Assembly (NCBI GenBank): GCA_000002445.1
Contig: CM000207.1
Location: 1,120,001-1,184,000 of the forward strand
DNA from: Trypanosoma brucei
Taxonomy: Eukaryota
Direction of reading: 5' to 3'
Length of the DNA: 64,000 bases
Shown: positions 3,571-60,899 of the stretch, one piece after another
Numbering within the stretch: the stretch's first letter is position 1
How the letters are laid out: each line of letters starts with the position of its first letter
Notes under the pieces: generated by a model
Databases searched by the model: none
Told to the model about the DNA's origin: nothing
Seen by the model: only the letters and a program-made list of their open reading frames with translations
Program-made: the position numbers and the translations under genes

Positions 3571-3781
<211 letters not shown>

Positions 3782-25330: not shown

Positions 25331-26119
25331 TTAGAAGATTATGAAGCTCAGTACTGTGGATAGTATCATCGCGTGTCTTTTGTGACCTACACCGTTCCTT
25401 CTTTGTTCACTCTCTTTAGAAGACGAGGTCTCATTTGTACCGCTTGTCACTACATCTGAAGGTCTACTCACTTCTGGTTCGGACGCTGCGCTTCGCAGTG
25501 GCGATGCAACATACCTGTCATCCTGCCCCGTCACTTGTGGTGGCGGGACAAATTTTTGCGTTTCTTCTTCATTACCTTGCCTGTTCTCCCTTCTTGTTTT
25601 AGTTTCACCTTCATCTCCCATCTTTTTTTTTGCCTGAACCCTCTGATGGTCGCTAGTGACGGCAGCAGCGCCCACATAATTCGCTTGCGGGAGTTCGTTA
25701 GATGACTTCACACTCGATTCTGGACTTCCATGGGGTTGACCATCATCAAGTTCCGTGGCCACTTCAGGAGACTTCTCCTGAGGCTTTGAAGTTTGGTGAC
25801 TGCTCCCATTGCCACCGTTTGAACTCGAGTCTGTAGACCGCGGCCCCAATGGCTTTTGTGTGCTGGTTTCTTCTTGGAGTTGTGACTGGGGTTGTTGGAT
25901 AGCGGAAGCTGTTACGGGTGGATTCTGTTGGTGAGTAGAGCTGCGCCGGTTTGCTGTCACAGTCCCACATTCCAGAACTCCAGTGGTGGGAGAGGTACGG
26001 TATTCAGTGCATGAATCCCTGCTCATAGTGACATCCACTGCGCTCACAACCCGCTGTTCAACGCCAGCCACGCACAACATTAGAATCAAAAATAGGCTCG
26101 TTGCAATCATGAGCATCAT
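25331..26119 (-). CDS. Small Ser/Thr/Pro-rich secreted or membrane-anchored protein (262 aa); member of a 3-gene local family
   Basis: ATG verified. Signal peptide MMLMIATSLFLILMLCVAGVEQ. Long low-complexity S/T/P/Q-rich middle. C-terminal basic patch plus hydrophobic tail GHKRHAMILSTVLSFIIF, which resembles the C-termini of ORFs 34308..35084 and 47379..48164. Confidence 0.55.
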   Translation of the reverse strand: MMLMIATSLFLILMLCVAGVEQRVVSAVDVTMSRDSCTEYRTSPTTGVLECGTVTANRRSSTHQQNPPVTASAIQQPQSQLQEETSTQKPLGPRSTDSSSNGGNGSSHQTSKPQEKSPEVATELDDGQPHGSPESSVKSSNELPQANYVGAAAVTSDHQRVQAKKKMGDEGETKTRRENRQGNEEETQKFVPPPQVTGQDDRYVASPLRSAASEPEVSRPSDVVTSGTNETSSSKESEQRRNGVGHKRHAMILSTVLSFIIF

Positions 26120-29011
26120 TTTCCCTCCTTAAAAAAATTGATCCTGCGAAAAAGAAGTACAAATCCTTTACAAACTAAAATTATAACTATAAAACTTATC
26201 AACGTACGCAAGTACGTATATTCTTTTTTCCTCTTAAAAACACTCCTATCACCACGATGCTATTCGGTCGAAGATATAATCAAGTCAACAATTTTCTACT
26301 GAGGCAAAAGCTATTGAATGAACTTGTTTAAACGAATGTCATCATCAACGCTCAGTTGCTTCCCAACAGCTAGGGCACTTGGACAATCAAATAGTATACG
26401 ATGCAAGTCTTTCTGCTGGTTGATACTTACATTCAATGAAGGTCTCCATTGCCAATTGCACATAATACTTTTAATAGTTTTGCCCCCATAATTTTCACCG
26501 ATAATCTTTTTTACATTCTTTTCAGATCACGGGATGCGCTCCTAACTTTTCCCTTATTACGTTACGACTGCTTGGACCCCCAGACTGCTTTTAGAACCAT
26601 TAGTGGATAAAGAAATTTATATATCATTTACAGATACGCACTCACGAACAATATTGCTTGCCAATAGAACATTTTTCATCAAACATGCCGACACCCACTG
26701 CAGAAGCACGAACATAAAAAATAAAAAAGAAATTTGAAATGTAAAATAACATATTCCTTACCTGTTTCCTCTCCACTCTTTTTTGCTAATATGCACAAAT
26801 CGAATATTAAAATGCACCCACAAAGTCCCCCAGTTCGTACCCCGCAGCCATAAAGACAGTGGGCAACAACTTGAAATAAATGATACCGTTACGTGTATGG
26901 CCAGGTTAACTAATTATGAACTCATATGGGGGAAAAAATAACAACAGCCAATTCGACACCAAACACTTTATTGAAAAATTAGAAGGCATATCGCATCCCA
27001 TTAGACTGCCATATGATCTGCGTGTGATTATTTCTACAACTTTGTATAATGTTAGTGCACCTCCTCTCGACATAAATACCATTCCGCTTTGTTTTTTAAG
27101 CTGTCGAACGTTTCGCTCCCCCGCTTACCATACAAAATTAAACATCTTCTTTCTTTAGATTTTTAACTCCTCTGCTTTCCGCGTTTTGAATAGCAGAAAA
27201 TAACATAAAACGGTTATTTTGTATCGGAAAATCCCCTGTGACGTATTGATTCCGTCATTTGCTTCTAAGACCGAGAGAGGGAGACGAATATGATAGCCCG
27301 CGTTCAGTCTCCACTTATCCCCCATGTTTTATGTTTGCAAGTGCAACATCTGTGATTCGGGGAGTCTCCGTTCTAACGAAAAGATTGCAAAGCTTAGAAA
27401 GGTTTAAACAGTAGAAGTAAAAGATTCAAAAAAATGAGCACACGATAGCAAGAAGAAAACTTAACATTAGGTAGTCGAACGCTTTCAGAAACAAATTTTT
27501 TTTAAAATGCAAATACAGTCTACAACTTACCATTAAAGCCAAATTTGGAACTATGGTACATACAGGCAGACACACATGCTGCTTGTCATTCCGTCTATTT
27601 TTCTTTTCACGGGAAAGATTACTTGGAAAGGTCTATGAAGATTTCTTTTACTTGCACTACCCTTTAACATCGTTTCATTGACCTTCATCTCTGTACGTTG
27701 AACCATCAAAACACCTTTCGCTCCTCTTCTCCAGTTCCCCCTCAGGTGCTTCAATGATTCCTCTTTTCTCAACACTACTGAGACCTTTGAAAGCAGAAAG
27801 TAAAAAGTTTTTTTCACCACTTCTTCACCCTATACTGCAGCTGATTGAATAAAAGTGTACATTCAGTATCCCTTTTTTATTATTTTTTATTTGTACCTCT
27901 GAATCAGTGTTTTTCTTTTATTTACTGTCGTTTCCATTACTAAATCTTGGTTGTTCCACACACCAATTAAACTTTGTCAGGCGTTTCCAGAATTTCTGTC
28001 ACTTTTCAGTTTCAAAATTTTCGCGGATTTTTGTTTCTGAGAGCATTGACCGCCTTGGTAACGCCATACTTCGCTTATTTAGTTTCCCGCATTTCTGACG
28101 CCTGAATCATCAGCACCGCAAGGTACATTTGAAGCTTATAATACTTTTCACTTCCAACCTCTGACGTTCACCAGTTTCCCTACGATCGCTCTACCATCGT
28201 ACCATTTCCGATATATCTCCGCAAGAAAAAAAAATACAACAAAAGACTGGATTAGCACATTTTACACGGCTAAAATAACCACCGGAAACACGAACGAAGC
28301 TTCGAAGTGCGTCCTTGCAGCTTTTTCCACAGAACCCACAGAGGGTACAAGCTTCCCTGCCAGTCCCCTGGGAGCCACCATCGTAATACGGCAACCACAA
28401 TCTAACTATGCGCACCACCTTTTCCACCGTGTATTCTACAACGTCTTTACAGTCCTAAACACACACAGTGGATCACGAAGACAGGCAATCAGAGAGAATT
28501 TTACTTCGTACACACATGATACATACCAGCATTCGAGAAGTCATAAAACAACCACCGCAGAAAGTTTAGACTCTTTTCTATGGAAACAAAACATATCAAA
28601 AAAACAAACGCAAAGCACATGGGTGTGTGAAAACTCGCACAAAAGCATGTATGCAAACATATTGGTGAATGTGAGGAGATGCATATAAACATTTTCGTTA
28701 GATTGCAGAATTGATACTATTTAAATTATCAGTAAGATTGACGTCAAAAAGCAAGTAAGGGAAGTTGCTGTGGACCTCGTTAAATTGAGAGTAGAGGGAG
28801 GTGATATTTGACATCATGTCCAGCAGTACGGAAGGCTACTGTCCGGCTGCAAAAGGTGCGATGAGGGGTGCAAATATTTTTTGTACTTCGACTATGAGCC
28901 GAAAAAAGCGGCGTCATTTTGAGGCCATTGCAACATATTACACGAATTGATTGTTGCACCATTTATATACAACTTGCCTCTCGGTAGATTGAAGCATTTT
29001 TTCAAAGAACC

Positions 29012-29720
29012 CTATATTACATTTATTTCAAGGCAACCATCTTTATATTTTTGGAGGCTGTTATCGGTCGCATTGACTTCCAGTGAGCAAGTATGATCGC
29101 CACACTTGACTGGGAGCTCCCCTGCACCTTTAATTTTTCCGTCTTTACACTTCTCAGTTTCCCCATTTCTGTCCTCTATAGCTTTGACGTCGTCCCACAC
29201 AGTCCTAGCAATTTACGCAATAGCTGTGTAATATTTATTTGCTGTTATGAGGGCTTCAGGTAATTTTTTTCCTCACTGCCCTTACACTTTCATTTACCTC
29301 TGCGAATAATCCACCTACCTTAGCTACAAGATCTCCCATTTCATTTCCATAGGATATAAGTTTTTCCAATTTTTTACTTTCCTTTCCCACTGCACCGCTA
29401 ACAACACTCAAATATTTGGTGCTTTCACCTGTTTTACTTTCCATATCATCTAATATGCGAGATGCATTTGCGTACACTTCTTCATTCACGAGCAACCTGC
29501 ACTCTCCACCTGTATATAATGTATTTAATGCATTCGAAAGGCACTTGAGGTAGCATACAGTCTCGTGTAAATTCTGGAAAGAATGATCATCCACCGATGT
29601 ACATCTATCCGTGGTACCAAAGCAGACCACGAGAAGAGGCAACATTAACCGAACCCTCATCTTAACCTTCACTGTGAACTTTTCTATGCGGATATAAACA
29701 GAACGACACATACATTTCAA
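29012..29720 (-). pseudogene. Degenerate VSG gene fragment (N-terminal segment plus Cys-rich C-terminal-domain segment, middle missing)
   Basis: ORF 29256..29720 encodes a signal peptide (MRVRLMLPLLVVCFGTTDRCTS) and a short helical N-terminal stretch. ORF 29012..29200 encodes EKCKDGKIKGAGELPVKCGDHTCSLEVNATDNSLQKYKDGC, which looks like a VSG C-terminal domain (CKD...C...C). There is no continuous ORF of VSG length. Confidence 0.4.
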
Positions 29721-32700
29721 ACAAGATCGGAGTGTACCGCATGCTCAGTGTGCTGATAACCGAGCGGTTACTGACAATATCACAAAAATTACGTAGCCGC
29801 AACTGTACCACTTACAGCTGGTTTGATAACCTCACGTTTCTTCACGGAAACAAAAAGATGCAGCGATATCGTTGGTTCTTACATTTAATTCTATAATATG
29901 TCCAGTTGCACAATTCAAGGTGAAATTGTCCATAACCTTTCCATGAAGTCACAAAATGAAACACCGTGTTAATAGTTAAATACCTGTACAACTTATCATT
30001 TCCAAGCACAGCATCTTCTGACGGGAAATAAACTCACACCATGCTCTTCACACATATCGTCAAATATGATCAAGGTGAAACTTGTGAAGTATGATTTTTT
30101 CCCCACGGTCACCATTTACAGCGAAGGTAGCCCCACCAAGAAAGCGGAATTAACATTTGATGCCTACAACAGAAGCCAGATGTAAATCTTCACGGGATGG
30201 CAATGCAAGGAAGTTGGGGATTTACTGCAGTCATGGCATTCTCATTCGAGGCCTCGAACGGGTCACAGCTTTTGAACACCTGTATAATAACAGCACTATT
30301 TGGAAGAAGAGGAGAAGCGTAAACATTAGTGTGAATATATCATTGGCAACTTGAACAAACTGCTACGAGGTTCAGAAAAGCGTGCAAAAAGCAAAGAAAT
30401 ACTCCTCGCAATGGCACACGAAACTGAAGTACCTGGAAGAGGTAGGTGCCATCAACGGTGCATCAATGGTGATGTATCATTTGATTCTGTGGAAGTCTTC
30501 ATCATCCTCCCTCAATAATTATCGATAAAATACACCACAGCGAAGAAACTGCGACCACACACATGCATGCCGCCTTCAAACTTCAAAACCTTCCTCTTAA
30601 ATTCTTACATAAAGTATTCCCCTCACGTTTCTTCCAGTCTTCTCCTATCTTTATTACCAGTTTCCGGCCAGAGGAGTCCAAACTGGAGCCTGCTTCATTG
30701 CGTCTGTCAACTTTTTCATGGCAGACAATGACTCGAATAAAAAACGAATATCCGCCACCTCGGCATCTTCAAGCAAATGTAGCTCACATAAGCAAAAAAA
30801 ATCTCCCTACGTGTCGTTGTACGCTTCCTTTCCCCCCACTTCCAACCAGTTTGCACCTTAGACGATATTTATGAAGTAAGAACGAGAAAGTAGCAGTACT
30901 TTTGCGACGAAATGTGAATATGGAGACAGACGTGATTCCATTCCGAGGCCGTTGACAGCACATGATGCAGAAGTCTTTCGGAGAGAATTAGATATGAAAA
31001 CACCAAACATAATCAATATTAACCTTCAAACAAATACAATCCGATCAGTTTCCTGACACGTGCCGCCCCTGTTGTAATGTCGGGGTTGCTGTGAGAACTA
31101 GAAAGATACTTAAAGCCACGTTCAGTTGCAATAATTGTGAGGGCTGTTGCACGTGATGTTGTTAACACAAATTCTATGACAATAACGCACCACCGCAGAA
31201 CCATTCCTTACGGCCGACTCTCTCAGTTTCCTGTTTCCCATAAATAACGCGAACAAATCAAACAAACATTTTCTTCGTGTCAGAAGGGCAAGGAGGCTCT
31301 TTCAACCTCGCCTCAACACTCATCCACTCACCCAGCGACAGTTCTTCAAAGGGGCTACAGCACCAATTAACACGACGTTTGTTAGGTTGAGGCAATTGTT
31401 GCAAAGTAGCATACTGAGACTTCCGTTGATTCTTATTTCGCCACCGCACTCGTCCTCTTCGCTCATTTCATCAATCAGCATTTTAATCATATTAAGAATC
31501 CACAAGATGCTGTCAACAAGCTTGAGGTGCCCACGCTAACCCCTCGAGTCTCAAATGCGTTAAATCAAGTACCCGATAAACAATTAGTGTATACCACTTA
31601 CCTCGTTACTGCAAAAAAAAAAAGGAGTCATAAAGCAGCTTCAGCCCCCCTTCTCGCATTGTTTACTCAAAGTTCCCCTACTCACAAAACTCAACCGTTC
31701 CATCAGCACCAAATGACATTAGAGCCTTTCACCCCTCAGACCTCCAGAAACCCTGACTAGTCCACTCCCCTTCGCCGTGGTACTCCGAAAATTCATAGGA
31801 CGCTAATATATCTTTGTTCGTTGGAATGCGCCTTTCTGACCACCAAGTCCTCCCGCCAGACTGTCAACATCTAGATTACACAGTCTTCCCATTTTACTTT
31901 CTGTATGTTGGATTGACGTAAATTCACCAGCACGGAGCATCCATCTAGTCTTTTAAGTCCAACCTACACACACACCGTGGGTACCGTGACAATTGCCCAG
32001 TACAAAACTCAACAAACTGAGTGACTGCGCAGTTGAATCTATGCCAGTTTTTCTCCAGCTGAGTGGCTGCAATACTTACATCAGGCAGAATTGCTCTCAA
32101 AATTCATACCTCTCGCTCACAAAACAACTCATAGAGTAGTGATCTTCGTTCTACAAAAAAAACAAGTAGGTGCACACTCCCCAACACAGCAACACGGAAC
32201 ATTCATTTATAGCACATGCTGAAAACCTTTTCATCATATTTCGTAAAAGGGTTAGTGAACTGCTTCAGAAATAGTCCGTATGCACATCCTCCTCCCACGA
32301 CCACCAGACTTCTTCGTCAAACACTATGCCGTCCACCCCTCACCACCATTTTTGATCGAAGAAACCTTTAGGCCACCATTCCATACTCCTCGCCTCCCCA
32401 ATCGTTTTGCGTTTTCAACTTGATGCGCCCGTGGCTTAACTCAAACACCTGCCCCCAAAAACAACGAGGCTGCAGCGTGTATGCACACATATATTAACCT
32501 CATTGCAACTTTGCATATTTTTAAGTAGAATCGGTGACAAAGGAACACACGCGTAATATGGAAACTGGACGAAATAAGTATGTCGGAGGAGCGTGTATGG
32601 TAGAGCAAATATGAATCGCCAACAAGTACCGGGAGCGCATCATAGATAAGGGGGAAAACGCAACGTGATGGCGATCGGTGCTGTCACTTCTTATTCGAGG

Positions 32701-34307: not shown

Positions 34308-35084
34308 CTAGGAACATATGAAGCTAAGCGCAACAGAGAGTATCATCATGCTTCCGCTATGCCACGCACCATTACCGCTTCGTGTAGTGCTTTCTGCGGA
34401 CTCCCACACATCTACAATGTCTGCGGCCACCGCCACTGCATCGCTTTGACCTGACCCCGAACTCACCCCCTGTGGCGACGGCCGCGTCACGTGCCCACGG
34501 TTGTGAGCTGTTACAAGTTGCGTTGAAACAACCCTTTCTCCTTCCCCACCTTCTCTGCGGTTGTTTTCCGCGCCTTCTTGCTTTACAACTCCCAATTTTT
34601 GTTCTTCTTGGCTCACTTTCTGTTCGCCGTGGTGAGCTGCCTGGTGCACCGCCGGCTCAGAGACCCGGGGGCTTTCAGATGGCTGCGAAGTTTCACTTCC
34701 CCTTCCGCTGCTATCTTGACGATCACCTGGTTTTACATTCACTTCAGAAGAGTGATTCTCAACATTGGAAGCCGGACGGTTAGTTCCACTGTCAGTGGTT
34801 GGACTCGATATGCCACTCCCCTGGGCCTCTTGCATTTGGTTTGTAACTGTGTTCATATTTGGCGGATTTTTGTTACGAAGCAAGGGAGTTGGAACGGGCC
34901 GTGGGCTTACAGTGTTTGGGCGGCTTGCGCCCACATTCCAAGTACGGCACTGTTCTTTTCCATTGGAGTAATCCCAGTAGTCGCACCTCTGATCCGTGAC
35001 TGAAACCCCAATCGAAGCTTCCGATTTAATCAATAGCGCAAGTAATATAAGCGTCAAAAATAGTGTTTGTATAAACATGAACAT
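34308..35084 (-). CDS. Small Ser/Thr/Pro-rich secreted or membrane-anchored protein (258 aa), paralogue of 47379..48164
   Basis: ATG verified. Signal peptide MFMFIQTLFLTLILLALLIKSEAS. Conserved N-terminal Cys motif CDYWDYSNGKEQCRTWNVGA (partner: CDDYWAPFGGELQCRTWNTGA). S/T/P-rich body. C-terminal hydrophobic tail MMILSVALSFICS. Confidence 0.6.
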   Translation of the reverse strand: MFMFIQTLFLTLILLALLIKSEASIGVSVTDQRCDYWDYSNGKEQCRTWNVGASRPNTVSPRPVPTPLLRNKNPPNMNTVTNQMQEAQGSGISSPTTDSGTNRPASNVENHSSEVNVKPGDRQDSSGRGSETSQPSESPRVSEPAVHQAAHHGEQKVSQEEQKLGVVKQEGAENNRREGGEGERVVSTQLVTAHNRGHVTRPSPQGVSSGSGQSDAVAVAADIVDVWESAESTTRSGNGAWHSGSMMILSVALSFICS

Positions 35085-37676: not shown

Positions 37677-38885
37677 CACTCAGACTTACACAACAACATC
37701 GTAGCCTATAGGTCACACACCCTGATAAAATTAAGGCATCTTTACCGTGCCAACTTTAACATGTCAAGGAAGGTTTAGGACATTTCTAACGAGTCCTTAG
37801 TTTATTCTATCTGTTCACAAACCCTCACTCAAAGTCCCTGTTTTTAGATACCACAGACCTTTGTGGAGCCGCCTGAGTTTAGAGGAATTTTCGATGCAGC
37901 GATGGTATTTCTTATCCCTGCATCGGTTGAACAAGTGGGGAATTCGTCATAAAAGGTGGCGCATTCAAATGTGATGATATTCAATCCGCAGTTTAAACCA
38001 CCAGCATTGCCTAATTTTCCGAAGTGTAGTTTTTTTCGTGGCAAAACATACACATAACTTCTTTATGATTTTCCCTAAACAAGAAAGAATCAAATTTGAT
38101 GTTGTCAATTTTTTAGTAGCAATAATGAGAATATATTGGTGACCCCTGAGGGTCCGCCCACTTAAATTTTAAATGCAGATATGGATAGTAGCAAGTCTCT
38201 TGAGCCTGCGTTTTCACTACCTAAGAGTAGAGCAAACGACTCCAGCTCCTGAAGGTGTTTTGGAAAAGCAGCTCTCTCCGCAACCTCTTTTGGAAAATGT
38301 GAAGTGTGATATTCCTAGATTCATTAGGAATACACAACCTCCGATACTGGAACAAACAAAAACATTGCTTACTTACTAGCCATTAGCCCCATAGAAATCT
38401 TCACAAGAGCTTGAGCACGTCACCCTTTTTGACTCAAAAGAGGTAACGTGTCATGTGTCTGGTCTCGTTCACTACACTTGATGCGAGCTCATCTTCATGC
38501 ATTACATACAGGGTGCATACAGAGTCAGGAAACTTCGTGTAAAAACAACAACAACAACAACAGACCTCCGCGATTCTTCCTTAAGTTTGTAGACAATATT
38601 GTGAAGTAATTATATTGTGGGCTAAAACTGATCCATAATCACTTCTTTCTCTCCAGGTCCACTTTCTGGTCGCACCATAATTGCCTTTAGAAGAGGTAAT
38701 AAATCACTTGTTTTTCTCGAGCACAACTGCGACGTTGTCATTATGGTTTGTCTTTCCCTTCTAGAATTTTAGTCATCCACATTCCAAATAAGTGTTACCT
38801 TTATAAAATATGACACTAAAATCCACTATTATTCATACTAATAATGTTATTATTAACATAAAGAAATCACGCGTGTTAGATTGCT

Positions 38886-40031
38886 TTATATCAACAGCAA
38901 CAAAATCACCAACAGAGGTGAAATAACTTGAGTTTCATTTTTTGGTCGAAGTGGCTTTTGTGATTGTCGTGACGATTCTGTAGTGTTTGTTTCTCTTGAA
39001 CTAAACGGATCAGTGTCCGTAGTAGTTTGCGTATTTGTATTTGTGTTTTTGCCTGATGTTACGGATGCCTCGCTCTCTGCTGCTGTTTGAGGGTGTTGTG
39101 GGTGTGGCTGAGCTGGGAGTGGTTTATTTTTTTCTTCCACATTTTGCTCCGGGGGTTGCACAACAGGTTGTGAAACCCTAGGTTGTTGGTGCGTTTTCCC
39201 TCCTTCTGGATTATTTTCTTTCGATACTGGCGGCCCCTCATTCTTTCTTGCCTCGTTTTGAGGGTTGGCCAGTTTTTCGATAAGTTTTTCCAGTCGTGTA
39301 AGCCACTCGACGTTCAGCCTTCCCGTTTCCTCACCTCCCAGTTTGTACATAACACAAGGGGCGTCCCTCAGATTATCTGAAGCTCCGCAGGATTGAGTGA
39401 TTGGTGGACTTCCGTGTCCAAAGCGCTTTGTTTCGCTGTTTCCCGTTCCTCTTTCCCTTTCCTTTAGTTTTGTTGAAAGATTCTCCTTCATTGTTTTCAA
39501 AGTTTTGGCATCAGGTCTCGCAGCGTAAATTGCTGTGGAACATTTTTCCATAACGCTTTTCCAATGCTGTTCTGCTTGTGTTCCGTTGCTCCAGCTTTCT
39601 TCACCATTTTGCCATATGTTGCTTTCATAGCACAGATTGACCATTTCGCCTTTACCATTTTGTGGCTTGCACAAACACAGAAGATCTACTGCCAACGCTT
39701 TACCTGCAAAAATAACTTCACTCGACGTCACTGCATCTACGTAACCGCAGTCATTATAGCGTCGATCTTTTCCATTCCAATTAAGGGAGCCATCACTTCC
39801 ATCTCCGTACAATATTGTGTTTATGGTAGTGTTATATTCGTTTTCATTGTCGCCTACTTCATCCTCGTTTTGTTTAACCAACTCTCGTATTCCCAGTGTT
39901 AAATTTAAAAAACTGCATAGTGTGTCAAATTCTTCTTTATTCTTTACGGAGCCGTCTGGGGATGCCTGACAACTCACTTCTTTTATCACCAAAACCAGGC
40001 ATATCAAAAACCTAACTGAGTATTTCCACAT
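38886..40031 (-). CDS. VSG-like (B-type motif) surface glycoprotein with Thr-rich C-terminal stalk and hydrophobic tail (381 aa), the intact copy
   Basis: ATG verified (MWKYSVRFLICLVLVIKEVSCQ, a signal peptide). FAGKALAVDLLCLCKPQNG. C-terminal NTNTNTQTTTDTDP... then ISPLLVILLLLI. It is the uninterrupted paralogue of pseudogene 16965..18110. Confidence 0.75.
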   Translation of the reverse strand: MWKYSVRFLICLVLVIKEVSCQASPDGSVKNKEEFDTLCSFLNLTLGIRELVKQNEDEVGDNENEYNTTINTILYGDGSDGSLNWNGKDRRYNDCGYVDAVTSSEVIFAGKALAVDLLCLCKPQNGKGEMVNLCYESNIWQNGEESWSNGTQAEQHWKSVMEKCSTAIYAARPDAKTLKTMKENLSTKLKERERGTGNSETKRFGHGSPPITQSCGASDNLRDAPCVMYKLGGEETGRLNVEWLTRLEKLIEKLANPQNEARKNEGPPVSKENNPEGGKTHQQPRVSQPVVQPPEQNVEEKNKPLPAQPHPQHPQTAAESEASVTSGKNTNTNTQTTTDTDPFSSRETNTTESSRQSQKPLRPKNETQVISPLLVILLLLI

Positions 40032-40934
40032 TTTCTTGGCTTTCCCGTCTAACTCCTAAGTTTCAGAGGAAGAATTTGTTCAGCGAGTTTCGCAAACATT
40101 AAAACATATTTTTGATCTTCAAATAGAAGCGCAAATTTATATTATACATGCACCATCATACAAGTAATGCACCACGTTAGAATGTGAAAACATTCAGTTA
40201 AATTACTGATGGGTAAGCATCATTCGCTGCTGGGGCAAATCATTGTTGCATTCAGAGTCGACAACTAATCAATTATGTGCAATTTTGCTTTGCAACAAAA
40301 GAAATGCTTATTTTCTTGATGTGCGTGTTTACTCTTCACCCCTGCGGATCACCATTAACAGGAGCAAACCCTCTTCTTCATCACTTTAAAAACAGAAAAA
40401 ATGCATCACATACTAGTTCTCACACGCTCCAAAAAATTTCGCTTTATAATGTACTTTTTAGAAAGGTTTTCATGGTCCACATGGCTTCAGTGGTCATTCA
40501 ATTTCACGACAGGTTACCTCTCTACACAGATCGCGCAGTGCACCACTCCAATAGTCCCTTTTTTACTTCATACCCTTCATAGACTCTGACCCTGTGAAGA
40601 GGGGGAGTAGAAGCATGCTCACTCGTGGATCGCGTCCGCAGAAAAAATAAAAATATTCTATTACTATATACGCGGACTACGCTACAAGTATAGAATCCTA
40701 TAATCCATTATGAATGTGTTTTCTGTTCTTTAGACCGAGGTGTACGCATTTACACCTTCCTACAGTCAAGCTATACGCACAAATCATAGAACGAAATGAT
40801 AAATTGTAACGGGGGTAAAACGTAATGGATGTGTCTCCAAACACGATTATCATCGAATCAATATAGCTAAAGTGATGTGGACTCCAAGTTAGTAATCCCA
40901 AAAACAAAACCATTGCACAAAATACAACATTGAA

Positions 40935-42050
40935 TCACATAACCAACATTTCTGCAAAAAATATTAGACCTATTATGGCGTGTTGCTTCCTCATTTTGAA
41001 TCCTTCTTCATCTATAACATCGTCTTCATCCTCACCTCCCTTGCGCTTCCTCCCACTCTCCTTGAAATACCTACGCACCATCGGGCTCTGAGTTAACAAT
41101 TCTTTTAGTTTATTTTCATGCTTTGCAAAGGATGTAAGGGTTGGCTGTACATCACGGTACTGTTTTGTAATTCTTTCGTATCCTCTTCTAACCAAAGTGT
41201 AGTTCTTGATCAGTTCGCGCACCATGTCACTAGATTTCAGAATAACGGCAGAATCTTTTTTGTAGGTAACAAACCCTCCAGTAGTTCCCACTATGAAAGA
41301 TCCAGGTCCTCCATTTGCAACCTCTTCCGTGCCCATGATCCAGCACTTTGTGCTGTTATCGGCTGTTAGTTCGACTTCTCGGTTAGCTGTGTATTTTTCA
41401 AGCACAGACAATATACCATCATCTGAATTATCCTCAGTGAAAGACATATTACATTTGTTTGGGGCTTTTACTGCTTCGTATTTGCAATTACCTTCCCCAC
41501 CACTTCCACATCCATTCTCACCTCCCGAAGAGCCTGCTTCCTTCACCAAACAACACCATTTACTTTCTTCATCCTTCGTTTTCTCAAACAATACTACCAA
41601 ATCCCTCAATACTTGTCCAATTGACAGTGATGCATTCACAACATGATAGGAGACTCTCACAATGTCTAAGAAACTAGCATCCATTACCTGAAGAGCATTA
41701 TCCATATTATTCATTACTTTTTCCATTTCCACATATGTTTTCTTTACATTTTTCATCTCACTTCCATTAACAACCCCTATCTTCTCCAGACCCTGCACTA
41801 TTGCTTTCCATGTTCTCCCCTTTACACCATGCCGATGCCGCCATTCCCGAAACTTATCTACCATTCCTGTCGCATTTTGGTGCTTCTTCAGAATCTCAGC
41901 ACTCACAACCCTTAAGGCATGACTGAGGTTACACAATGTTTCAGCTCCCTTGAGAGTCATAGCCTTTCCAGAAGGTTGCCCCTCCACTGTCCCAGTGACA
42001 ATGCCAAACACTGTCAGGCACACTGCAAGAAAAAGTGATATCACCTTCAT
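40935..42050 (-). CDS. VSG-like surface glycoprotein (371 aa), paralogue of 19014..20129
   Basis: Identical length. 6 amino-acid differences from copy 1, mostly charge-changing (E/K, S/R, K/R). Confidence 0.65.
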   Translation of the reverse strand: MKVISLFLAVCLTVFGIVTGTVEGQPSGKAMTLKGAETLCNLSHALRVVSAEILKKHQNATGMVDKFREWRHRHGVKGRTWKAIVQGLEKIGVVNGSEMKNVKKTYVEMEKVMNNMDNALQVMDASFLDIVRVSYHVVNASLSIGQVLRDLVVLFEKTKDEESKWCCLVKEAGSSGGENGCGSGGEGNCKYEAVKAPNKCNMSFTEDNSDDGILSVLEKYTANREVELTADNSTKCWIMGTEEVANGGPGSFIVGTTGGFVTYKKDSAVILKSSDMVRELIKNYTLVRRGYERITKQYRDVQPTLTSFAKHENKLKELLTQSPMVRRYFKESGRKRKGGEDEDDVIDEEGFKMRKQHAIIGLIFFAEMLVM

Positions 42051-42218
42051 TATTTATCTAAAAACGAAACAAGTTTACTTGAGGCAATTTAATACAGTAT
42101 ATCTCATTAGAAACTAACACGCACATGAACACACATATGCATACATACACACCATTTTAAATGCAACAAAGACGCAAAAAAAAACATAACATAACATATT
42201 TGGTAATGTAATATTAAA

Positions 42219-43637
42219 CTAAAAGATAAGAATAAGAGATAAGAATAATAACAATATAAACCCCCACGTTTCCATATTCAAATGAGTAAGTCCATCATTA
42301 TTTACCTCAGTATTATCACCTTCGCTGTCACCCTTTACTCGGCTACTTTTCCATAGCTCTGCATCACCACCTAGTTTCACCTCAAGAAATATTTCCTCGG
42401 CCTCGTGTTGATACTCTTCCAACTCATGAAGATGACTGTCAGCTTCTTTTGAATATTTATCCATTTCTTGCAGTTGCTCGGTAGCGTTAGTAAGACGATT
42501 GTACCATGGAATTCCACCATTTTCAAGTGTGTACTTGTAACTGACACATGTGAATCCAGCAGTATGACCCGTGCATGTCCGATTTTCGTTTTTATCAGTT
42601 CTCACATAACCAAAAATACCCTTCACCTGATATTTATCCTGTTCCAAATTCACTAAGGCATCAAACTGAGCTAATGCACTTTTCAAAGTCTTTACATTCG
42701 ATGCAACGTTTTTGTACACACAAGCTTTACTAATCACATCCCATGCCTCAGTGTAATTGTATTTTATGTTGTCTGGGCTGCAGGGGCTGCTATTGCCCTT
42801 ACAGTAATTTGCCATCATTGTCCAACTTCCATTTTTTGGTCTTCTTATTTCATCTTTACAAGGACAATTGAACCCATTATAAACACTATCACTATATTTG
42901 CCCTTACCGCTCTCTTCTTTTTTTTTATCTTCATTATCTTCATTATCTTCTTCCTCTTTCTCGTCTCTTTTCTGCCTCATATCTTCAGTCACATTTATAG
43001 CCTCTCCCACACATAGACAGAAAAAGTCATTGATTAGTGTCTTTCCAACCAGCTTGTCTCCATAAGAACCGCAACTCGTGCCTGCATTATCAATACTATT
43101 GAACAGCAGTGACTTGTTTCCCCTCATGGCTTTCTCTAGAGTTTTATTCTCATTTCGCGCCACATCCACAGCGTCTCCATACACAGCTTTCAACATATTG
43201 TCTTCGGCAGAACGACTTGCATTTAACGCTTTTGTCCTATTCACTTCTATTTCTTCCTTCAGCTTTTTCGCCTTTTCAAGCAGTTGTATCATCAACTGAT
43301 ATGCTGTCGTGCTGTTAGATGAATTGCTCGAGCCTTTATTACTTCCAGCGGCCCCCACCACACTGACCTTTTCCTCCAACTTCTTCAGAATCTCTCCTTC
43401 CTTCTCACGGTTCTTGAAGGGGGGTTGTGGTGCTTCTGCCTGCGTAATTCGGTAAATTTTGCACAGTGTCTCGAACTCACCAACGTTATGGTATTTGTAA
43501 CTATCGTCGATGTAATCCGTAATGCTTCCCCAGTCAACCATATCAGGCCGCCATTTGTACGACCCCATATCTCCCTGAAAGGAAGGAGATAAAACAGCTG
43601 CAAAAAGCCCAACAGCGAACACTATTTCACACCTCAT
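42219..43637 (-). CDS. Variant surface glycoprotein (472 aa), paralogue of 20297..21715
   Basis: Identical length. About 10 amino-acid differences. Six of these fall within a 20-residue window (QPSFKNREKEANILNELEEM versus QPPFKNREKEGEILKKLEEK). Confidence 0.8.
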   Translation of the reverse strand: MRCEIVFAVGLFAAVLSPSFQGDMGSYKWRPDMVDWGSITDYIDDSYKYHNVGEFETLCKIYRITQAEAPQPPFKNREKEGEILKKLEEKVSVVGAAGSNKGSSNSSNSTTAYQLMIQLLEKAKKLKEEIEVNRTKALNASRSAEDNMLKAVYGDAVDVARNENKTLEKAMRGNKSLLFNSIDNAGTSCGSYGDKLVGKTLINDFFCLCVGEAINVTEDMRQKRDEKEEEDNEDNEDKKKEESGKGKYSDSVYNGFNCPCKDEIRRPKNGSWTMMANYCKGNSSPCSPDNIKYNYTEAWDVISKACVYKNVASNVKTLKSALAQFDALVNLEQDKYQVKGIFGYVRTDKNENRTCTGHTAGFTCVSYKYTLENGGIPWYNRLTNATEQLQEMDKYSKEADSHLHELEEYQHEAEEIFLEVKLGGDAELWKSSRVKGDSEGDNTEVNNDGLTHLNMETWGFILLLFLSLILIF

Positions 43638-46600
43638 TGTGGCTGTTTTTTTTACTTTTATCAGTTAAACAAATTGGAGAAAAACCTCATCATCGCAGTC
43701 ATTATTGCTATTGGTAGACGCACTCAACAGACGTATACAATGAAAAATATTGAAATTAATAAGTGCCTGGCTCAAACCAACTACAACAGGACCCAACAAA
43801 GAGTAAATCACATTCCAAAACACATTTACATGAGTTCCCTCTCGTCATGCTGGATATCAACATAAAGTTCCTTTACAACTGTTTTGTTTCTCCAATATCT
43901 TCCTCCACCAAATTAACCTCCACTACCTTAACTACCATTCTGGCTTGTCCCAATTTTCTAACTGAGTTGCGCTTCTATTTTCTGTATTTCCTCGTTAGTG
44001 ACTTATCCACTACCCTAATGTGTACCTGCACTTTCATACTATTTTTTTTTCACATCCTGTACCAACTCCTTTAAACTCTGCTTCTGAGTCCCATTTAGCA
44101 TATCCCGCTCTTTTCATAAGCACATTGACAATACTCTTCGTTACTCTTTTTGTGAGCATGTGCAGCTTCCCGTCCTCCATTTTCTTAGACGACACATTGT
44201 TTAATATAAAAGTTGTATCTTAAAAATACCATCAGTGGACACTTATTATTGAAGCCCTTGTTATACGGTGACGTTACGGGATATAATGTCAGTCACCAAC
44301 ACAAAAAAAACGGCTCCAGAATAACAAGAGACCCTCTTTGTCACCACCCTCGTTAGAATTATTTACCACAATCAAAGATGTCACCATTCTTATAGATACG
44401 CTGGTGACAAAAAAGGAGGTCACATACGTAACCATTTATCCTCTCAGTGAACTCTCATCACCTTTACTCCACACAAGTTCGTTACATTAGCAAAAAACAA
44501 ACGGCAAAAACGCTACTTGGGTTAGCTCAAAATCAAACACTCCATCCTTACAGCAAATACAGAGAGCATTCACACACTCCATTCCCCCACAAAATACAGA
44601 TGGTGGAGACAGCCACAGTTATCACAACTCACAATTAAGATAACTCAAGCAAAGACACTCCAACGAAATAGAAGACCAATAACACGAAACATGTGAGCAC
44701 GGACATACAACGTCTTGCATGTATTTTATTATGGAGTAGGGGGAACGTATCCGAAAGTATTTGCTACACAGTAAAATTACTACTATTAGCCACGGCGCTA
44801 TCGAGATGTGTCGAGCAGTACCGAAGCACAGTTGCCATAGATTTCGTTGAAAAGTAGGTAGAAAAGAGGTAATGTTGGATAACGTGGCAACAAGCACGGA
44901 AGATGGATGGCCAGTAGTAGAGGCAAACATGATAACTCTACCTTACTGGAACCGTTACTCTAAATGTGACAGAACACAGTGCCGTCATTTGCAACACTTA
45001 TCACCGCACATATTTTCCTCCTTACTCGACACATCGGCTTTCAGTCAAGCACAAATAGGGGAGATTATTGCTATGATTCCCATTACTAACGGTGTGGGTT
45101 TTCTTGCCGTGAGTAGTGAGTAGCACACGTCCATTGCAGAATTCTAAACCCTCAATTGATTTAACCGGTCACTTATGGGATGCGATTTGGCGTGCAGTTT
45201 ATTGGTAATTCTCAGAGATGCACTGCCTTTGGTCGTGAGTCTACGATAACAATTTACTGCAAACGTTTGTACCACCTTATCAAACGTAGTCAACTGCACA
45301 TCCTCTACCATTTCGCTCCCGTTTTACTTAATTGGTATTCTTGTTACAATGCTGGATCCTTGACATTACCTGTTTCTTTTGCTGTTATCATTTAGGAAGG
45401 TTGAGACCCGTCATGTCCCTTTTGTGAATCCCATCCGTGACCAAATCAATTACAAACGGAGTGCCATGAATGCTTCTCGCTGTGTCCCCACTGTTGTGAC
45501 AATAACACTTGTAATGCATGTCAGTCTAACAGCGTTTTATAACCTTTGAGCAGATTTCAATGGGCCCAATATAGACCACAAGGTGGGTAGCTATTGCATT
45601 GGCGTCTTCGTTCCGTCAACCCTATTTCCTGACTCAACAAGTCTCGCCCAATTGAGTGCCACCGCACCAAAGCAACTGCATACTGTTCATTAGGTAGATC
45701 ATTCCGCAAAGTTATTTCGGTCACCTCGCCACGCAGACTAGCCAGCCCCAGAGGGTTTGTTGTTTTTACCTTCTGCTGAGGAGGTTGAAAATCACGTTCT
45801 CGTACGCCCTTTTCCCCCGCTGCCTGCTCATGCATTCGAATTATTCAAATGGTGCGCTCAGACATTCTCTCTGGTCCTACTCAACTAGTATCAGAAGTGT
45901 CGGTTAAGATTTGTGAGTGAGAGTTCTGAGCAGCTTCTTTCCAGGATACTGCTTGTCTACAGTCGCTACAACTTTTGGTTGCTTTCAGGCTTAAACACTA
46001 CTTCCTTTGTTTCCACCACTGTGCAAATGCAAACGCATTCTTGTTTCCCCCTTCCCTGTTCCACAGTATCCGGCGCGCTCCTAAGAATTGAATTGCCTGT
46101 ATCCCATGGTTACGGCACTTCCTTGGGTCGTACAATTGGTCCAGACAGTCTCTGCTAGTCTTGTTGCAGGTTTCTACCTCGGAAGAGTACGGTCTAACAC
46201 TCTGCTTGATTGGGCACCTCACTTTCGCCAGAAACTACAGTTACTGGCATAACCAATTAGCTTCAAGTAATACGCTTATATTGGTATTCACGAGATTTAT
46301 TACGCGTAAGTTGAAGTACTCATTAACAAGCGATAAGTAGAGTAAAGTTATAATCTTAAAGTCCAGTAGTGTCAAAAAAAGATAGTATATCCGCGGCCAG
46401 GTTAATCTTGCCAGTACACGTAGAATTATGCAAATAATAAAGTAATCAACCAAAAGAAAAAGTGCTAGCAATGTATTTTTCAGCGTCTTCTCGTTAAAAT
46501 TTTATTATTTCTGCGCTTAAGTTTGCGAGTTTCAATACAGTTTGCAGCAATTGTGCTACTATCTTAGTCAAATGGGTTTTGCAATCAACGCTTACAAAAA

Positions 46601-47378
46601 AAAATATATATATATATAACCAATGACACCCCAGTGGTGCTCGCTCCAATGAGCTGTGTTCGTTAATTAAATCATTGTAGTGGAGGTGTTGTTACCATCT
46701 TCGTTAATTCCTTCCTTCACATCCGCGTGCATTTGTGTTCTATTTACCGTTATTGACCTTTCTAGCATATCAATTCCTCGTAAATTTCGTGCACTTAGCA
46801 ATTTATTAGCATTTGGATCATTCATGTTTTTATCCGATATTCACACACACTAAAAAATATCTTAAGTTTATCGATAGGATTTCACACATGCTTAAAGAGA
46901 TAGTTAGCTTCTTTAGAAAGATTTAAATTTGCAATGCTATTAAGCTAATCCTCACACTAACTTCTATTACATTTTTGAAAAATTCAACTGTGTGTTACTT
47001 TCTTAATACCAATGAAGTTAAATTTTCTTACCTCATTTGCAGTAACATTTTTCAGTTCGTTTACTCTTTTTGATATCGTATTTATAGTCCTTTTATTATT
47101 AGTGCATTTTACCTTATACACTCGAGAATTTTAACTTGATTTTTTCCATTCCAACTATTCTCCTTAGTTTTGCACATTACCGATAAATATGTTGATGCTA
47201 TCCACACCTTTTGCAGCAACGCCATTTTAAATAGTATGTGGTTGCAACGTTCCGGAAGTGTGTCTCTTGTAAAAGAAGTTGCCATTTGGCCACTGATTCT
47301 CAATCTGTCCCTTGTGTTATGTATTACCAATTTCACTGAAAGCTTGCACACTTTTTCACGGATATGGGGCAATGAGTT

Positions 47379-48164
47379 TTAAAGGCACACAAGGCTCAGT
47401 GCTGTGGAGAGTATCACTACATGCATTTTGTGTGCAGTGCTCTTCCTCACCTGTGTATTGTTTTCTTTTGACTCCTGCTCATTCATATTGCTTGTTGCCA
47501 GTTCCTCTGTATTTTCTTGCTCAGCCCCCAACACCGCCCTCCGTGCCGGCGGCTGCGCCACGCTCCCGTTATCAGGACCTGTTAATTCCTTTCGAGAAAT
47601 TGCATTTCCTTCGTTTACACGTTTTCTGCTATGTGCTTCCATGCTTTGTTGTCCCCCCACGGTGTCAACTTCCTGTTCGTGAACCGTTTTATCGACATGC
47701 TGTTCGACAGAGTCAGGTGGTGACGGTGCAGCTCCACCAGAAATTGGGGATCTTGAAAGGGGTTTTAGTACCTGACCTTCGCTCCTGCTGCCGACCGCAG
47801 CATCATTTGGTTGCACGGTCACTGTGGGAGATACTTCTTGAGAGCCAGGAGCCCGTTGACTAGTTCTCTCTGCGGCTGAACCCGACACGGCACTCTCCCC
47901 CATTTCTTGCCGCTGGGGATCAACGCTCGTCTTGCCAGGTGCAGGTGTGCCACGAGGTGACGAAACTGAAGCTGCTGGCGGGCTCACACCGCTAGGGTGG
48001 GTTGCGCCTGTATTCCAAGTCCGGCACTGCAGTTCTCCACCGAATGGGGCCCAGTAGTCGTCGCACCGAGGACCAACGGCTGAAACCTCCACCGAAACTT
48101 CCGATTCAACCAATAGCGCGACCAATATTAGCATCACAAATAGGACTGTTGTAAGCCTGAACAT
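47379..48164 (-). CDS. Small Ser/Thr/Pro-rich secreted or membrane-anchored protein (about 261 aa from MFRLTTVLF...), paralogue of 34308..35084
   Basis: The internal ATG at 48164 gives the signal peptide MFRLTTVLFVMLILVALLVESEVS, aligned with the partner's MFMFIQTLFLTLILLALLIKSEAS. The listed ORF extends to 48245, probably spuriously. Conserved Cys motif. C-terminal HKMHVVILSTALSLVCL. Confidence 0.55.
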   Translation of the reverse strand: MFRLTTVLFVMLILVALLVESEVSVEVSAVGPRCDDYWAPFGGELQCRTWNTGATHPSGVSPPAASVSSPRGTPAPGKTSVDPQRQEMGESAVSGSAAERTSQRAPGSQEVSPTVTVQPNDAAVGSRSEGQVLKPLSRSPISGGAAPSPPDSVEQHVDKTVHEQEVDTVGGQQSMEAHSRKRVNEGNAISRKELTGPDNGSVAQPPARRAVLGAEQENTEELATSNMNEQESKENNTQVRKSTAHKMHVVILSTALSLVCL

Positions 48165-50748: not shown

Positions 50749-50749
50749 A

Positions 50750-60814: not shown

Positions 60815-60899
60815 TTTTTCAGTGGCGAAATAATACAATGATGATTCCGTGAAATCTATTTCTCTCCCACACACGCTAACTTTTGTCCGTCTTTTTTTT

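What the first reader, a model, noticed from the sequence alone, without database searches (positions are those of the whole stretch)
25331..48164. Local three-member family of small Ser/Thr/Pro-rich secreted proteins interleaved with the VSG-like modules
ORFs 25331..26119, 34308..35084 and 47379..48164 share the same architecture. Each has a cleavable signal peptide, a paired-Cys N-terminal motif (CDYWDYSNGKEQCRTWNVGA / CDDYWAPFGGELQCRTWNTGA in two of the three), a long S/T/P/Q-rich probably O-glycosylated body, and a conserved C-terminus of a basic patch plus a hydrophobic tail ([HK]..[MV]ILS[TV].LS...). Their bodies are highly diverged, around 50% identity or less. Each sits immediately upstream (in transcription order) of a VSG-like module, so the array is built of S/T-protein plus B plus A units. 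Their position and size recall the ESAG9-type small secreted proteins found among VSG arrays. That comparison is only an analogy. The family identity is unknown to me.
Basis: partly seen in the sequence, partly recalled or inferred. Interest (0 to 1): 0.55.

Follow-up and report, generated by a model that had tools for sequence, protein, structure and literature searches.

The report
Known ESAG9 genes, T. brucei chromosome 9
The three small secreted-protein genes are the already annotated and studied ESAG9 genes of a chromosome-internal cluster on Trypanosoma brucei chromosome 9, which are switched on in the transmissible "stumpy" bloodstream stage, so the finding is real but not new.

Summary
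Three minus-strand ORFs at exactly the stated coordinates share a hydrophobic N-terminal leader, a Cys pair, a low-complexity S/T/P/Q-rich body and a basic-then-hydrophobic C-terminus.

The window is Trypanosoma brucei brucei TREU927 chromosome 9. The three products are exact matches to XP_827088, XP_827090 and XP_827095, all annotated "ESAG9, putative".

An exhaustive profile search of 1.84 billion proteins found 24 representatives. All 20 I could name are ESAG9 or ESAG9-like proteins of T. brucei, T. b. gambiense or T. equiperdum. ESAG9 is a dispersed, T. brucei-specific family (cell-surface phylome Fam2, 15 copies) with predicted signal peptide and GPI signal. The three chromosome-9 genes are 5- to 30-fold up in stumpy forms, and the family is repressed in slender forms by REG9.1.

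- Identity is 26–31%, not about 50%.
- Each gene has a closer relative elsewhere, so this is not a local family.
- The "VSG-like modules" are ESAG2, ESAG11 and VSG-related genes.
- The ESAG9 + B + A unit holds for two of the three genes.
- O-glycosylation is unsupported.

Novelty: already known. Interest is low.

The parts
25331..26119 (-). ESAG9 #1 (262 aa). It is XP_827088/EAN76758. By order of identifiers it is most likely Tb09.160.5400 = Tb927.9.7340.
   Evidence: Exact-sequence look-up names it ESAG9, and T. equiperdum carries an identical protein. Leader spans about residues 1-23, Cys pair is 37/51, and the tail is HKRHAMILSTVLSFIIF. Its best relatives are the ESAG9-like P0030 and P0028.
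34308..35084 (-). ESAG9 #2 (258 aa). It is XP_827090/EAN76760. It is most likely Tb09.160.5430 = Tb927.9.7370 (inferred from identifier order).
   Evidence: name it ESAG9. The T. equiperdum copy matches at 256/258 residues. Its best relative is T. equiperdum P0014, at 44% identity and E 2e-52.
47379..48164 (-). ESAG9 #3 (261 aa). It is XP_827095/EAN76765. It is most likely Tb09.v1.0330 (inferred from the run v1.0290, v1.0300 ... 160.5440).
   Evidence: names it ESAG9. An identical protein lies on T. equiperdum contig L002, which is 99.8% identical in DNA over 4.5 kb. Its best relative is T. b. gambiense P0016, at 39% identity and E 1.5e-40.
42219..43637 (-). ESAG2 (472 aa, VSG_B fold), directly downstream in transcription order of ESAG9 #3. 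A second copy lies at 20297..21715, downstream of ESAG9 #1.
   Evidence: Pfam VSG_B E 3.7e-24. Annotated ESAG2. The two copies are 98% identical at protein level.
40935..42050 (-). ESAG11 (371 aa). A second copy lies at 19014..20129.
   Evidence: Annotated ESAG11. It has no VSG Pfam hit. The two copies are 98% identical.
36114..37217 (-). VSG-related gene Tb09.v1.0290, directly upstream of ESAG9 #2. Its twin Tb09.160.5440 at 49190..50293 lies directly upstream of ESAG9 #3.
   Evidence: Pfam VSG_B E 1.6e-34. The two are 99.7% identical.
38886..40031 (-). VSG-related gene Tb09.v1.0300. A copy interrupted by a stop codon lies at 16968..18110.
   Evidence: Pfam VSG_B E 8e-26. tblastn gives 98.4% identity to 16968-18110, but the open frame there is only 221 aa.
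28895..29720 (-). Frameshifted ESAG1 pseudogene in the 8.2-kb spacer between ESAG9 #2 and ESAG9 #1.
   Evidence: Pfam ESAG1 (PF03238) scores E 2.6e-21 on the 154-aa ORF and 5.1e-55 on the stitched frames.
37710..46048 (.). Segmental duplication D (ESAG2 + ESAG11 + VR0300), 95.8% identical to 15791..24126. It ends about 1.2-1.3 kb downstream of the ESAG9 stop codons.
   Evidence: Self-BLAST.
35453..37680 (.). Segmental duplication V (VSG-related gene plus its flanks), about 100% identical to roughly 48530..50752. It ends about 370 bp upstream of the ESAG9 start codon.
   Evidence: Windowed identity profile. Self-BLAST.

Best explanation
The three ORFs are the three chromosome-internal ESAG9 genes (also called GRESAG9; cell-surface phylome Fam2) of T. 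brucei TREU927 chromosome 9.

**Genomic setting.** They sit in an RNA polymerase II polycistron together with ESAG2, ESAG11, VSG-related genes and an ESAG1 pseudogene.

**Protein architecture (shown here).**
- An N-terminal signal peptide.
- A short Cys-bracketed hairpin, with family consensus C..YW.......C.
- A long, intrinsically disordered, hypervariable, hydrophilic body with 1-2 N-glycosylation sequons.
- A conserved C-terminal signal: small residues, then a basic HK[RM]H patch, then a hydrophobic tail of about 12 residues. This has the form of a GPI-addition signal.

**Most likely mode of action (from the literature and by inference).**
- The genes are transcribed constitutively as part of the polycistron.
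- Their mRNAs are kept low in proliferating slender forms through 3'UTR elements and the RNA-binding repressor REG9.1.
- The mRNAs accumulate when parasites become stumpy.
- The proteins enter the secretory pathway, are N-glycosylated, reach the flagellar pocket or surface, and are at least partly shed into the surroundings.
- There they presumably act on the host or on the tsetse midgut at transmission.

**Status.** The biochemical function is unknown in the field. Gene identity, architecture, family restriction and stage regulation are shown. The release route (GPI-anchored then shed, versus directly secreted) and the target are inferred.
For: **Identity.**
- Exact matches to GenBank proteins named ESAG9 on the 3,057,547-bp TREU927 contig.
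- Neighbours are named ESAG2, ESAG11, VSG-related and adenosine transporter.

**Family.**
- A profile of the three found 24 representatives at E<=1e-3 among 1.84 billion proteins.
- Of these, 20 could be named. Each carries an ESAG, ESAG9 or ESAG9-like name from at least one source (GenBank or UniRef), and all are from T. brucei, T. b. gambiense or T. equiperdum.
- The 20-sequence alignment shows the leader, the C..YW..C motif and the ENSTQ...HKRHA.ILSA.L tail as family-wide features.

**Architecture.**
- Hydropathy, Cys positions, composition and sequons.
- AlphaFold2 gives a leader helix, a hairpin at residues 40-51 (pLDDT about 79), a body at pLDDT about 40, and a C-terminal helix.

**Literature.**
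- Jackson 2013 Table S1 lists Fam2, exemplar Tb09.160.5400 (ESAG9): SP yes, GPI yes, TMH 0, 15 copies in T. brucei, 0 in T. congolense, 0 in T. vivax. Microarray signal is 6579 in slender, 43669 in stumpy and 645 in procyclic forms.
- Jensen 2009 reports Tb09.160.5400, Tb09.160.5430 and Tb09.v1.0330 up 6.6-, 5.4- and 30.5-fold in stumpy forms.
- Rico 2017 and the 2024 REG9.1 paper describe 3'UTR control, REG9.1 repression, co-regulation of distant family members and extracellular release. They also state that function is unknown and that some members are predicted to be GPI-anchored.

**Conservation.**
- Identical (#1, #3) or 256/258-identical (#2) proteins occur in T. equiperdum OVI, with collinear flanks.
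Against: - The assignment of each ORF to a particular Tb09/Tb927.9 identifier rests on identifier and accession order and on one matching fold-change value. It does not rest on a direct look-up.
- No signal-peptide or GPI predictor was available. Those calls rest on hydropathy and on Jackson 2013.
- The primary papers on secretion and on the 3'UTR element (Barnwell 2010, Monk 2013) are not held in the library. Shedding and N-glycosylation are therefore cited second-hand or from memory, and they were shown for other family members, not for these three.
- These genes are not in a telomeric expression site, so they are strictly ESAG9-related chromosome-internal copies.
- T. equiperdum is so close to T. 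brucei that identity there says little about selection. The non-coding flanks from 24250 to 27750 are also identical.
Confidence: 0.93

Rival explanations
1. Decaying, non-functional ORFs: relics of expression-site material that was copied into a chromosome-internal site.
For: The cluster does contain decayed genes. There is a frameshifted ESAG1 and a VSG-related copy with an in-frame stop. The ESAG9 bodies are extremely diverged and of low complexity, and no Pfam model matches them.
Against: - All three frames are intact, and the family-wide leader, Cys pair and C-terminal signal are retained.
- Their mRNAs are among the most abundant in stumpy forms. Tb09.160.5400 ranks 28th of all genes.
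- Family members are co-regulated by a dedicated repressor.
Confidence: 0.02
2. Stably GPI-anchored stumpy-stage surface-coat components, a mucin-like O-glycosylated layer, rather than released proteins.
For: - The C-terminus has the shape of a GPI signal: small residues 17-20 from the end, a short basic spacer and a 12-13 residue hydrophobic tail.
- Jackson 2013 scores Fam2 as GPI-positive.
- The body is S/T/P-rich and disordered.
Against: - The literature describes extracellular release of ESAG9 members and their absence from stumpy proteomes.
- Only 'some' or 'many but not all' members are predicted to be GPI-anchored.
- From general knowledge, mucin-type O-glycosylation is a T. cruzi feature and is not established for T. 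brucei bloodstream forms.
- S+T is only 18-25% of the body, and 22-25% of residues are charged. That is unlike a true mucin.
Confidence: 0.2
3. Divergent homologues of the Trypanosoma cruzi MASP (mucin-associated surface protein) family.
For: The architecture is the same: a conserved signal peptide and a conserved C-terminal signal flank a hypervariable centre. [quoted passage not shown]
Against: The exhaustive profile search returned no T. cruzi protein at E<=1e-3 among the 20 of 24 representatives that could be named. Similarity confined to signal sequences and low-complexity composition can arise by convergence.
Confidence: 0.1

Closest known systems
ESAG9 / GRESAG9 family of Trypanosoma brucei (cell-surface phylome Fam2; characterised members ESAG9-EQ Tb927.5.4620 and ESAG9-K69)
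   Same: - The window genes are members of this family.
- They share the leader, the C..YW..C motif, the hypervariable body and the HKRH plus hydrophobic C-terminus.
- Distribution is limited to Trypanozoon.
- They are stumpy-enriched and belong to the REG9.1-regulated family.
   Different: - They are chromosome-internal, in a Pol II unit, rather than in a telomeric VSG expression site.
- The experimentally dissected 3'UTR element and the secretion assays were done on other members (Tb927.5.4620 and K69), not on these three.
T. cruzi MASP (mucin-associated surface proteins)
   Same: Conserved N-terminal signal peptide and C-terminal GPI-type signal, a hypervariable low-complexity centre, and multigene dispersal among other surface-protein genes.
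   Different: No detectable sequence homology in the exhaustive profile search. MASP has hundreds to thousands of copies and is expressed in T. cruzi trypomastigotes. ESAG9 has about 15 copies and is stumpy-specific.
[quoted passage not shown]
   Same: T. brucei-specific, 230-270 aa, signal peptide, stumpy-enriched and de-repressed by REG9.1 knock-down.
   Different: They carry a transmembrane helix and are unrelated in sequence. None lies in this window.

Membership tests
ESAG9 (Fam2) | Significant sequence similarity to recognised ESAG9 proteins | tested here: met
   Exact identity to proteins deposited as ESAG9. Profile hits run from E 2.8e-48 down to 7e-5 against T. equiperdum, T. b. gambiense and T. 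brucei ESAG9 and ESAG9-like proteins. Pairwise BLASTP to family members reaches 2e-52.
ESAG9 (Fam2) | N-terminal signal peptide | tested here: met
   The hydrophobic core spans about residues 1-23 (Kyte-Doolittle up to 3.5) and is followed by small residues. AlphaFold2 predicts a helix at 2-27. Jackson 2013 Table S1 gives SP = y for Tb09.160.5400. No dedicated predictor (SignalP) was available.
ESAG9 (Fam2) | C-terminal hydrophobic or GPI-addition signal and no internal transmembrane helix | tested here: inconclusive
   Each has a 12-13 residue hydrophobic tail preceded by a basic patch and small residues, and none has an internal hydrophobic segment of TM length. Jackson 2013 gives GPI = y and TMH = 0. 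No GPI predictor or experiment was available, and the literature says only some members are predicted to be anchored.
ESAG9 (Fam2) | Restricted to the T. brucei group (Trypanozoon) | tested here: met
   All 20 named representatives among the 24 hits from 1.84 billion proteins come from T. brucei subspecies or T. equiperdum. Jackson 2013 lists 0 copies in T. congolense and T. vivax.
ESAG9 (Fam2) | mRNA enriched in stumpy bloodstream forms and repressed via the 3'UTR by REG9.1 | not testable with these tools
   Literature only. The three chromosome-9 ESAG9 genes are up 5.4- to 30.5-fold in stumpy forms. Family-wide de-repression follows REG9.1 RNAi. The 34-nt element of Monk 2013 could not be retrieved. 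The three 3' flanks share only short blocks.
ESAG9 (Fam2) | Location in a telomeric VSG expression site (the strict sense of 'ESAG') | tested here: not met
   The cluster is flanked by housekeeping genes (RNB exoribonuclease, Arf GTPase, PhyH and a nucleoside transporter) inside a 3.06-Mb chromosome contig. The literature accepts chromosome-internal ESAG9 copies as family members. This criterion therefore affects the name (GRESAG9), not membership.
T. cruzi MASP | Sequence homology to MASP N- and C-terminal conserved regions | tested here: not met
   No T. cruzi protein reached E<=1e-3 in the exhaustive search with the three-sequence profile (names). A direct profile-profile test against a MASP alignment was not possible.
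VSG (a- or b-type) | VSG N-terminal domain fold | tested here: not met
   The ESAG9 proteins have no Pfam VSG hit, and AlphaFold2 predicts a disordered body. The neighbours ESAG2 and the VR genes do hit VSG_B.

The most novel reading that the evidence does not exclude
The ESAG9 genes are old, mutually very divergent 'islands' that sit exactly at the edges of two young duplication or gene-conversion tracts. Block V is about 100% identical and ends about 370 bp upstream of the start codon. Block D is 96% identical and ends about 1.2 kb downstream of the stop codon. If this pattern is real and not an assembly artefact, it suggests that homogenisation is excluded or selected against across ESAG9 and its 3'UTR. 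The three co-located, co-expressed paralogues would then be kept different on purpose. One possible reason is that they act as obligate heteromeric partners, since release of one ESAG9 is reported to need co-expression of another family member (my recollection of Barnwell 2010).
Probability: 0.1. Interest if true: 0.4.

Novelty: already known. Interest (0 to 1): 0.1.

Why it matters
There is little new here. The genes are annotated, belong to a named family, and have published expression, regulation and secretion data.

ESAG9 itself still matters. It is a T. brucei-specific, stumpy-stage released protein family whose biochemical function is unknown, and it is used as a marker of transmission competence.

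This re-analysis adds three small things:
- A map of how the chromosome-9 cluster is built: two young duplications flank old, divergent ESAG9 genes.
- The point that the Cys-bracketed hairpin is the only part of the protein predicted to fold.

Tried and rejected
- **Pfam scan of the three proteins.** No family matched. This is uninformative, because there is no ESAG9 model.
- **Word-indexed homology searches.** The single-sequence search returned only the query itself. The search with the 20-sequence alignment returned two proteins. The low-complexity bodies saturate the candidate list. The exhaustive profile search was what worked.
- **Primary ESAG9 papers.** Barnwell 2010 (by DOI and PMC id) and Monk 2013 are not held. 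I therefore could not search for the 34-nt 3'UTR element. An alignment of the three 800-nt 3' flanks shows only short shared blocks in A-rich sequence. I draw no conclusion from it.
- **Purifying selection.** I compared TREU927 with the T. equiperdum contig. The CDS is identical, but so are the flanks from 24250 to 27750. The 104 differences cluster inside the duplicated block, so the test has no power.
- **dN/dS between the window paralogues.** Not attempted, because 53-58% DNA identity means synonymous sites are saturated.
- **Bacterial-type promoter/terminator scan of the strand-switch region.** It gave counts no higher than shuffles and does not apply to a trypanosome.
- **Antisense ORF 47312..47863 (+).** Its 183 aa overlap ESAG9 #3. 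I treat it as a chance frame.
- **tRNA scan of the window.** None found.

Full report
**1. What is in the sequence**

Three minus-strand ORFs of 262, 258 and 261 aa lie exactly at the coordinates given: 25331..26119, 34308..35084 and 47379..48164. The mechanical ORF of the third extends to a GTG at 48245, but the ATG at 48164 gives the deposited 261-aa protein.

The three align end to end. They are related beyond chance, with BLASTP E-values of 5e-7, 5e-9 and 1e-25. They are nevertheless very divergent: 26-31% protein identity and 53-58% DNA identity in global alignments.

A simple feature analysis confirms the described architecture:
- a strongly hydrophobic leader of about 23 residues;
- a pair of cysteines 12-14 residues apart, at 37/51, 34/46 and 34/47, so all three have it and not just two;
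- a body with 34-42% S+T+P+Q, 22-25% charged residues and about 2% aromatics;
- one or two N-x-S/T sequons;
- a C-terminus made of a basic or small patch (HKRH, HSGS, HKMH) followed by a 12-13 residue hydrophobic tail.

AlphaFold2 on the three-sequence alignment gives a mean pLDDT of 48. It predicts a leader helix, a small β-hairpin between the two cysteines (pLDDT about 79), a body at pLDDT about 40 with no secondary structure, and a C-terminal helix. In other words, the protein is a disordered chain between two targeting signals.

**2. What it is**

The single-sequence search returned the query itself, named 'expression site-associated gene 9 (ESAG9) protein, putative [Trypanosoma brucei brucei TREU927]', on a contig of 3,057,547 bp. 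Exact-sequence look-up shows that all three ORFs are deposited proteins: XP_827088/EAN76758, XP_827090/EAN76760 and XP_827095/EAN76765. All three are called ESAG9.

The neighbouring ORFs are deposited under these names:
- ESAG2 at 42219..43637 and 20297..21715;
- ESAG11 at 40935..42050 and 19014..20129;
- VSG-related genes Tb09.v1.0290 (36114..37217), Tb09.v1.0300 (38886..40031) and Tb09.160.5440 (49190..50293);
- an adenosine transporter at 57062..58450.

Pfam agrees. ESAG2 and the VSG-related genes match VSG_B, ESAG11 matches nothing relevant, and the transporter matches Nucleoside_tran.

A profile of the three proteins, scored against every one of 1.84 billion representative proteins, found only 24 sequences at E<=1e-3. 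The 20 I could name are all ESAG9, ESAG or ESAG9-like proteins of T. brucei TREU927, T. b. gambiense or T. equiperdum. It comprises the leader (M....LFLTL), V.VS....C..YW.......C, and ENSTQ...S.AHKRHA.ILSA.L....S. The 'analogy' to ESAG9 is therefore membership.

**3. Not a local family**

Each window gene has a closer relative encoded elsewhere than either of its neighbours:
- #1 is closest to the ESAG9-like P0030 and P0028 (E about 1e-16, against 5e-9 for #3);
- #2 is closest to T. equiperdum P0014 (44% identity, E 2e-52, against 1e-25 for #3);
- #3 is closest to T. b. gambiense P0016 (39% identity, E 1.5e-40).

Jackson et al. 2013 count 15 Fam2 (ESAG9) genes in T. brucei and none in T. congolense or T. 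vivax (PMC3605285 Table S1).

**4. Structure of the cluster**

Self-comparison shows two young duplications.

Block D (15791-24126 = 37710-46048) is 95.8% identical over 8.36 kb. It carries ESAG2, ESAG11 and the VSG-related gene v1.0300. The left copy of that gene has an in-frame stop.

Block V (35453-37680 = about 48530-50752) is essentially 100% identical. It carries the other VSG-related gene.

The ESAG9 genes lie just outside both blocks. Identity falls from 100% to 56-77% within about 370 bp upstream of the ESAG9 start, and to about 50% across the coding body. Block D ends about 1.2 kb downstream of the ESAG9 stop, beyond which only 57% similarity remains.

In transcription order (right to left) the array reads:

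VR – ESAG9#3 – ESAG2 – ESAG11 – VR' – VR – ESAG9#2 – 8.2-kb spacer – ESAG9#1 – ESAG2 – ESAG11 – ψVR' – a 493-aa VSG_B gene.

The spacer has no ESAG2, ESAG11 or VR homologue, but it holds a frameshifted ESAG1 pseudogene (Pfam PF03238, E 5e-55 on stitched frames). 'A' is ESAG11, which Jackson et al. regard as ISG-like rather than a-type VSG.

The cluster is chromosome-internal. Housekeeping genes (RNB exoribonuclease, Arf GTPase, PhyH dioxygenase) lie on the plus strand at 1-9.4 kb and converge on the array.

**5. Which gene is which (inference)**

Identifier order is v1.0290, v1.0300, [ESAG11], [ESAG2], [ESAG9], 160.5440, and GenBank accessions are consecutive. Jensen et al. list the chromosome-9 ESAG9 genes as Tb09.160.5400, Tb09.160.5430 and Tb09.v1.0330.

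This makes #1 = Tb09.160.5400, #2 = Tb09.160.5430 and #3 = Tb09.v1.0330. Tb09.160.5400 equals Tb927.9.7340, because both carry the same 6.63-fold value. Tb927.9.7370 is named as an ESAG9 locus used as a stumpy marker.

**6. How it works**

Evidence from the literature:
- All eight annotated ESAG9 genes of strain 927 rise in stumpy forms. The three chromosome-9 genes rise 6.6-, 5.4- and 30.5-fold, and Tb09.160.5400 is the 28th most abundant signal overall (PMC2771046).
- Fam2 is scored signal-peptide positive, GPI positive and without transmembrane helices. Signals are 6579 (slender), 43669 (stumpy) and 645 (procyclic).
- Stage control is post-transcriptional, through the 3'UTR. The RRM protein REG9.1 represses ESAG9 mRNAs in slender forms, and its depletion de-represses even distantly related family members. 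ESAG9 proteins are described as released extracellularly (PMC5380359; PMC3827541; PMC10919850).
- Function is still called unknown in 2024.

From these I infer the following sequence of events:
- constitutive polycistronic transcription;
- mRNA destabilisation or translational repression in slender forms;
- accumulation in stumpy forms;
- ER entry through the leader;
- disulphide closure of the N-terminal hairpin;
- N-glycosylation;
- processing of the C-terminal signal, for which plausible omega sites lie 17-20 residues from the end;
- export through the flagellar pocket and shedding.

Gene identity, architecture and phylogenetic restriction are shown here. Regulation is shown in the literature for these loci at the mRNA level. 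The anchoring and release route and the extracellular target are inferred.

From memory (Barnwell et al. 2010, not held in the library), ESAG9 proteins are N-glycosylated, and release of one member required co-expression of another.

**7. Rivals**

*Decaying ORFs.* This is contradicted by intact frames, retained signals and very high stage-specific mRNA levels.

*Stably anchored mucin-like coat.* This is possible for some members, but it is at odds with reported release and with the composition, which is highly charged and has only 18-25% S+T. Mucin-type O-glycosylation is not established in T. brucei bloodstream forms (general knowledge).

*Homology to T. cruzi MASP.* This has been suggested in the literature, but no T. 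cruzi protein reached significance in the exhaustive search. The resemblance is architectural.

**8. Conservation**

T. equiperdum OVI encodes identical #1 and #3 and a 256/258-identical #2. They lie on contigs collinear with the window at 98.1% and 99.8% DNA identity. Because the flanks are equally conserved, this shows presence outside the strain but not selection.

**9. Verdict**

Novelty: already known. Interest: low.

The only mildly unusual point is that old, divergent ESAG9 genes sit precisely between young, nearly identical duplication tracts. This could reflect exclusion of gene conversion, or it could simply reflect the history or the assembly of this region, which carries 'v1' patch identifiers.

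Noticed in passing
window 28895-29720 (-): A frameshifted ESAG1 pseudogene lies in the 8.2-kb spacer between ESAG9 #2 and ESAG9 #1. The 154-aa ORF at 29256..29720 matches the start of Pfam ESAG1. Stitching two further frames raises the match to E 5e-55.
   Followed up: yes
window 16968-18110 (-): The left copy of VSG-related gene Tb09.v1.0300 is 98.4% identical in translation but open for only 221 aa (16965..17630). It therefore carries an in-frame stop and is probably a pseudogene.
   Followed up: partly
window 35453-37680 and about 48530-50752: A 2.2-kb block containing a VSG-related gene is essentially 100% identical in two places, with sharp edges. The genes between carry 'Tb09.v1' identifiers. 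The block could be a very recent gene conversion or a product of assembly patching.
   Followed up: partly
window 57062-58450 (-): This is an adenosine/nucleoside transporter gene (Pfam Nucleoside_tran). By accession order it is probably Tb09.160.5480, which Jensen 2009 also lists as 2.3-fold up in stumpy forms. Stumpy-enriched genes may therefore be clustered here.
   Followed up: partly
window 9400-13100: Plus-strand housekeeping genes (RNB exoribonuclease at 1065..3368, Arf GTPase at 3782..4363, PhyH at 5799..6941) meet the minus-strand ESAG array here. GC skew changes sign around 10-12 kb. This looks like a convergent strand-switch region. No tRNA gene is present.
   Followed up: partly
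window 13103-14584 (-): A 493-aa ORF has a full-length VSG_B domain (E 2.9e-73) and is the last gene of the minus-strand unit. With the mechanical GTG start, the exact sequence is not in the protein collection. I did not work out whether it is an intact VSG or a VSG-related gene.
   Followed up: no
window 54000-56500: A very AT-rich stretch (GC 0.26 against about 0.42 around it) has many weak dispersed self-matches to other AT-rich intergenic pieces at 58.7, 61.4 and 62.9 kb. It lies downstream of the transporter gene and may be a long 3'UTR or intergenic low-complexity DNA.
   Followed up: no
window 3614-3720: A perfect (TG)n microsatellite of 53 copies lies between the RNB and Arf genes.
   Followed up: no
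window 52479-53063 (-) and 59300-60874 (-): Two ORFs of 194 aa and 524 aa have no Pfam match. The 524-aa sequence with its mechanical GTG start is not in the protein collection. I did not identify either.
   Followed up: no
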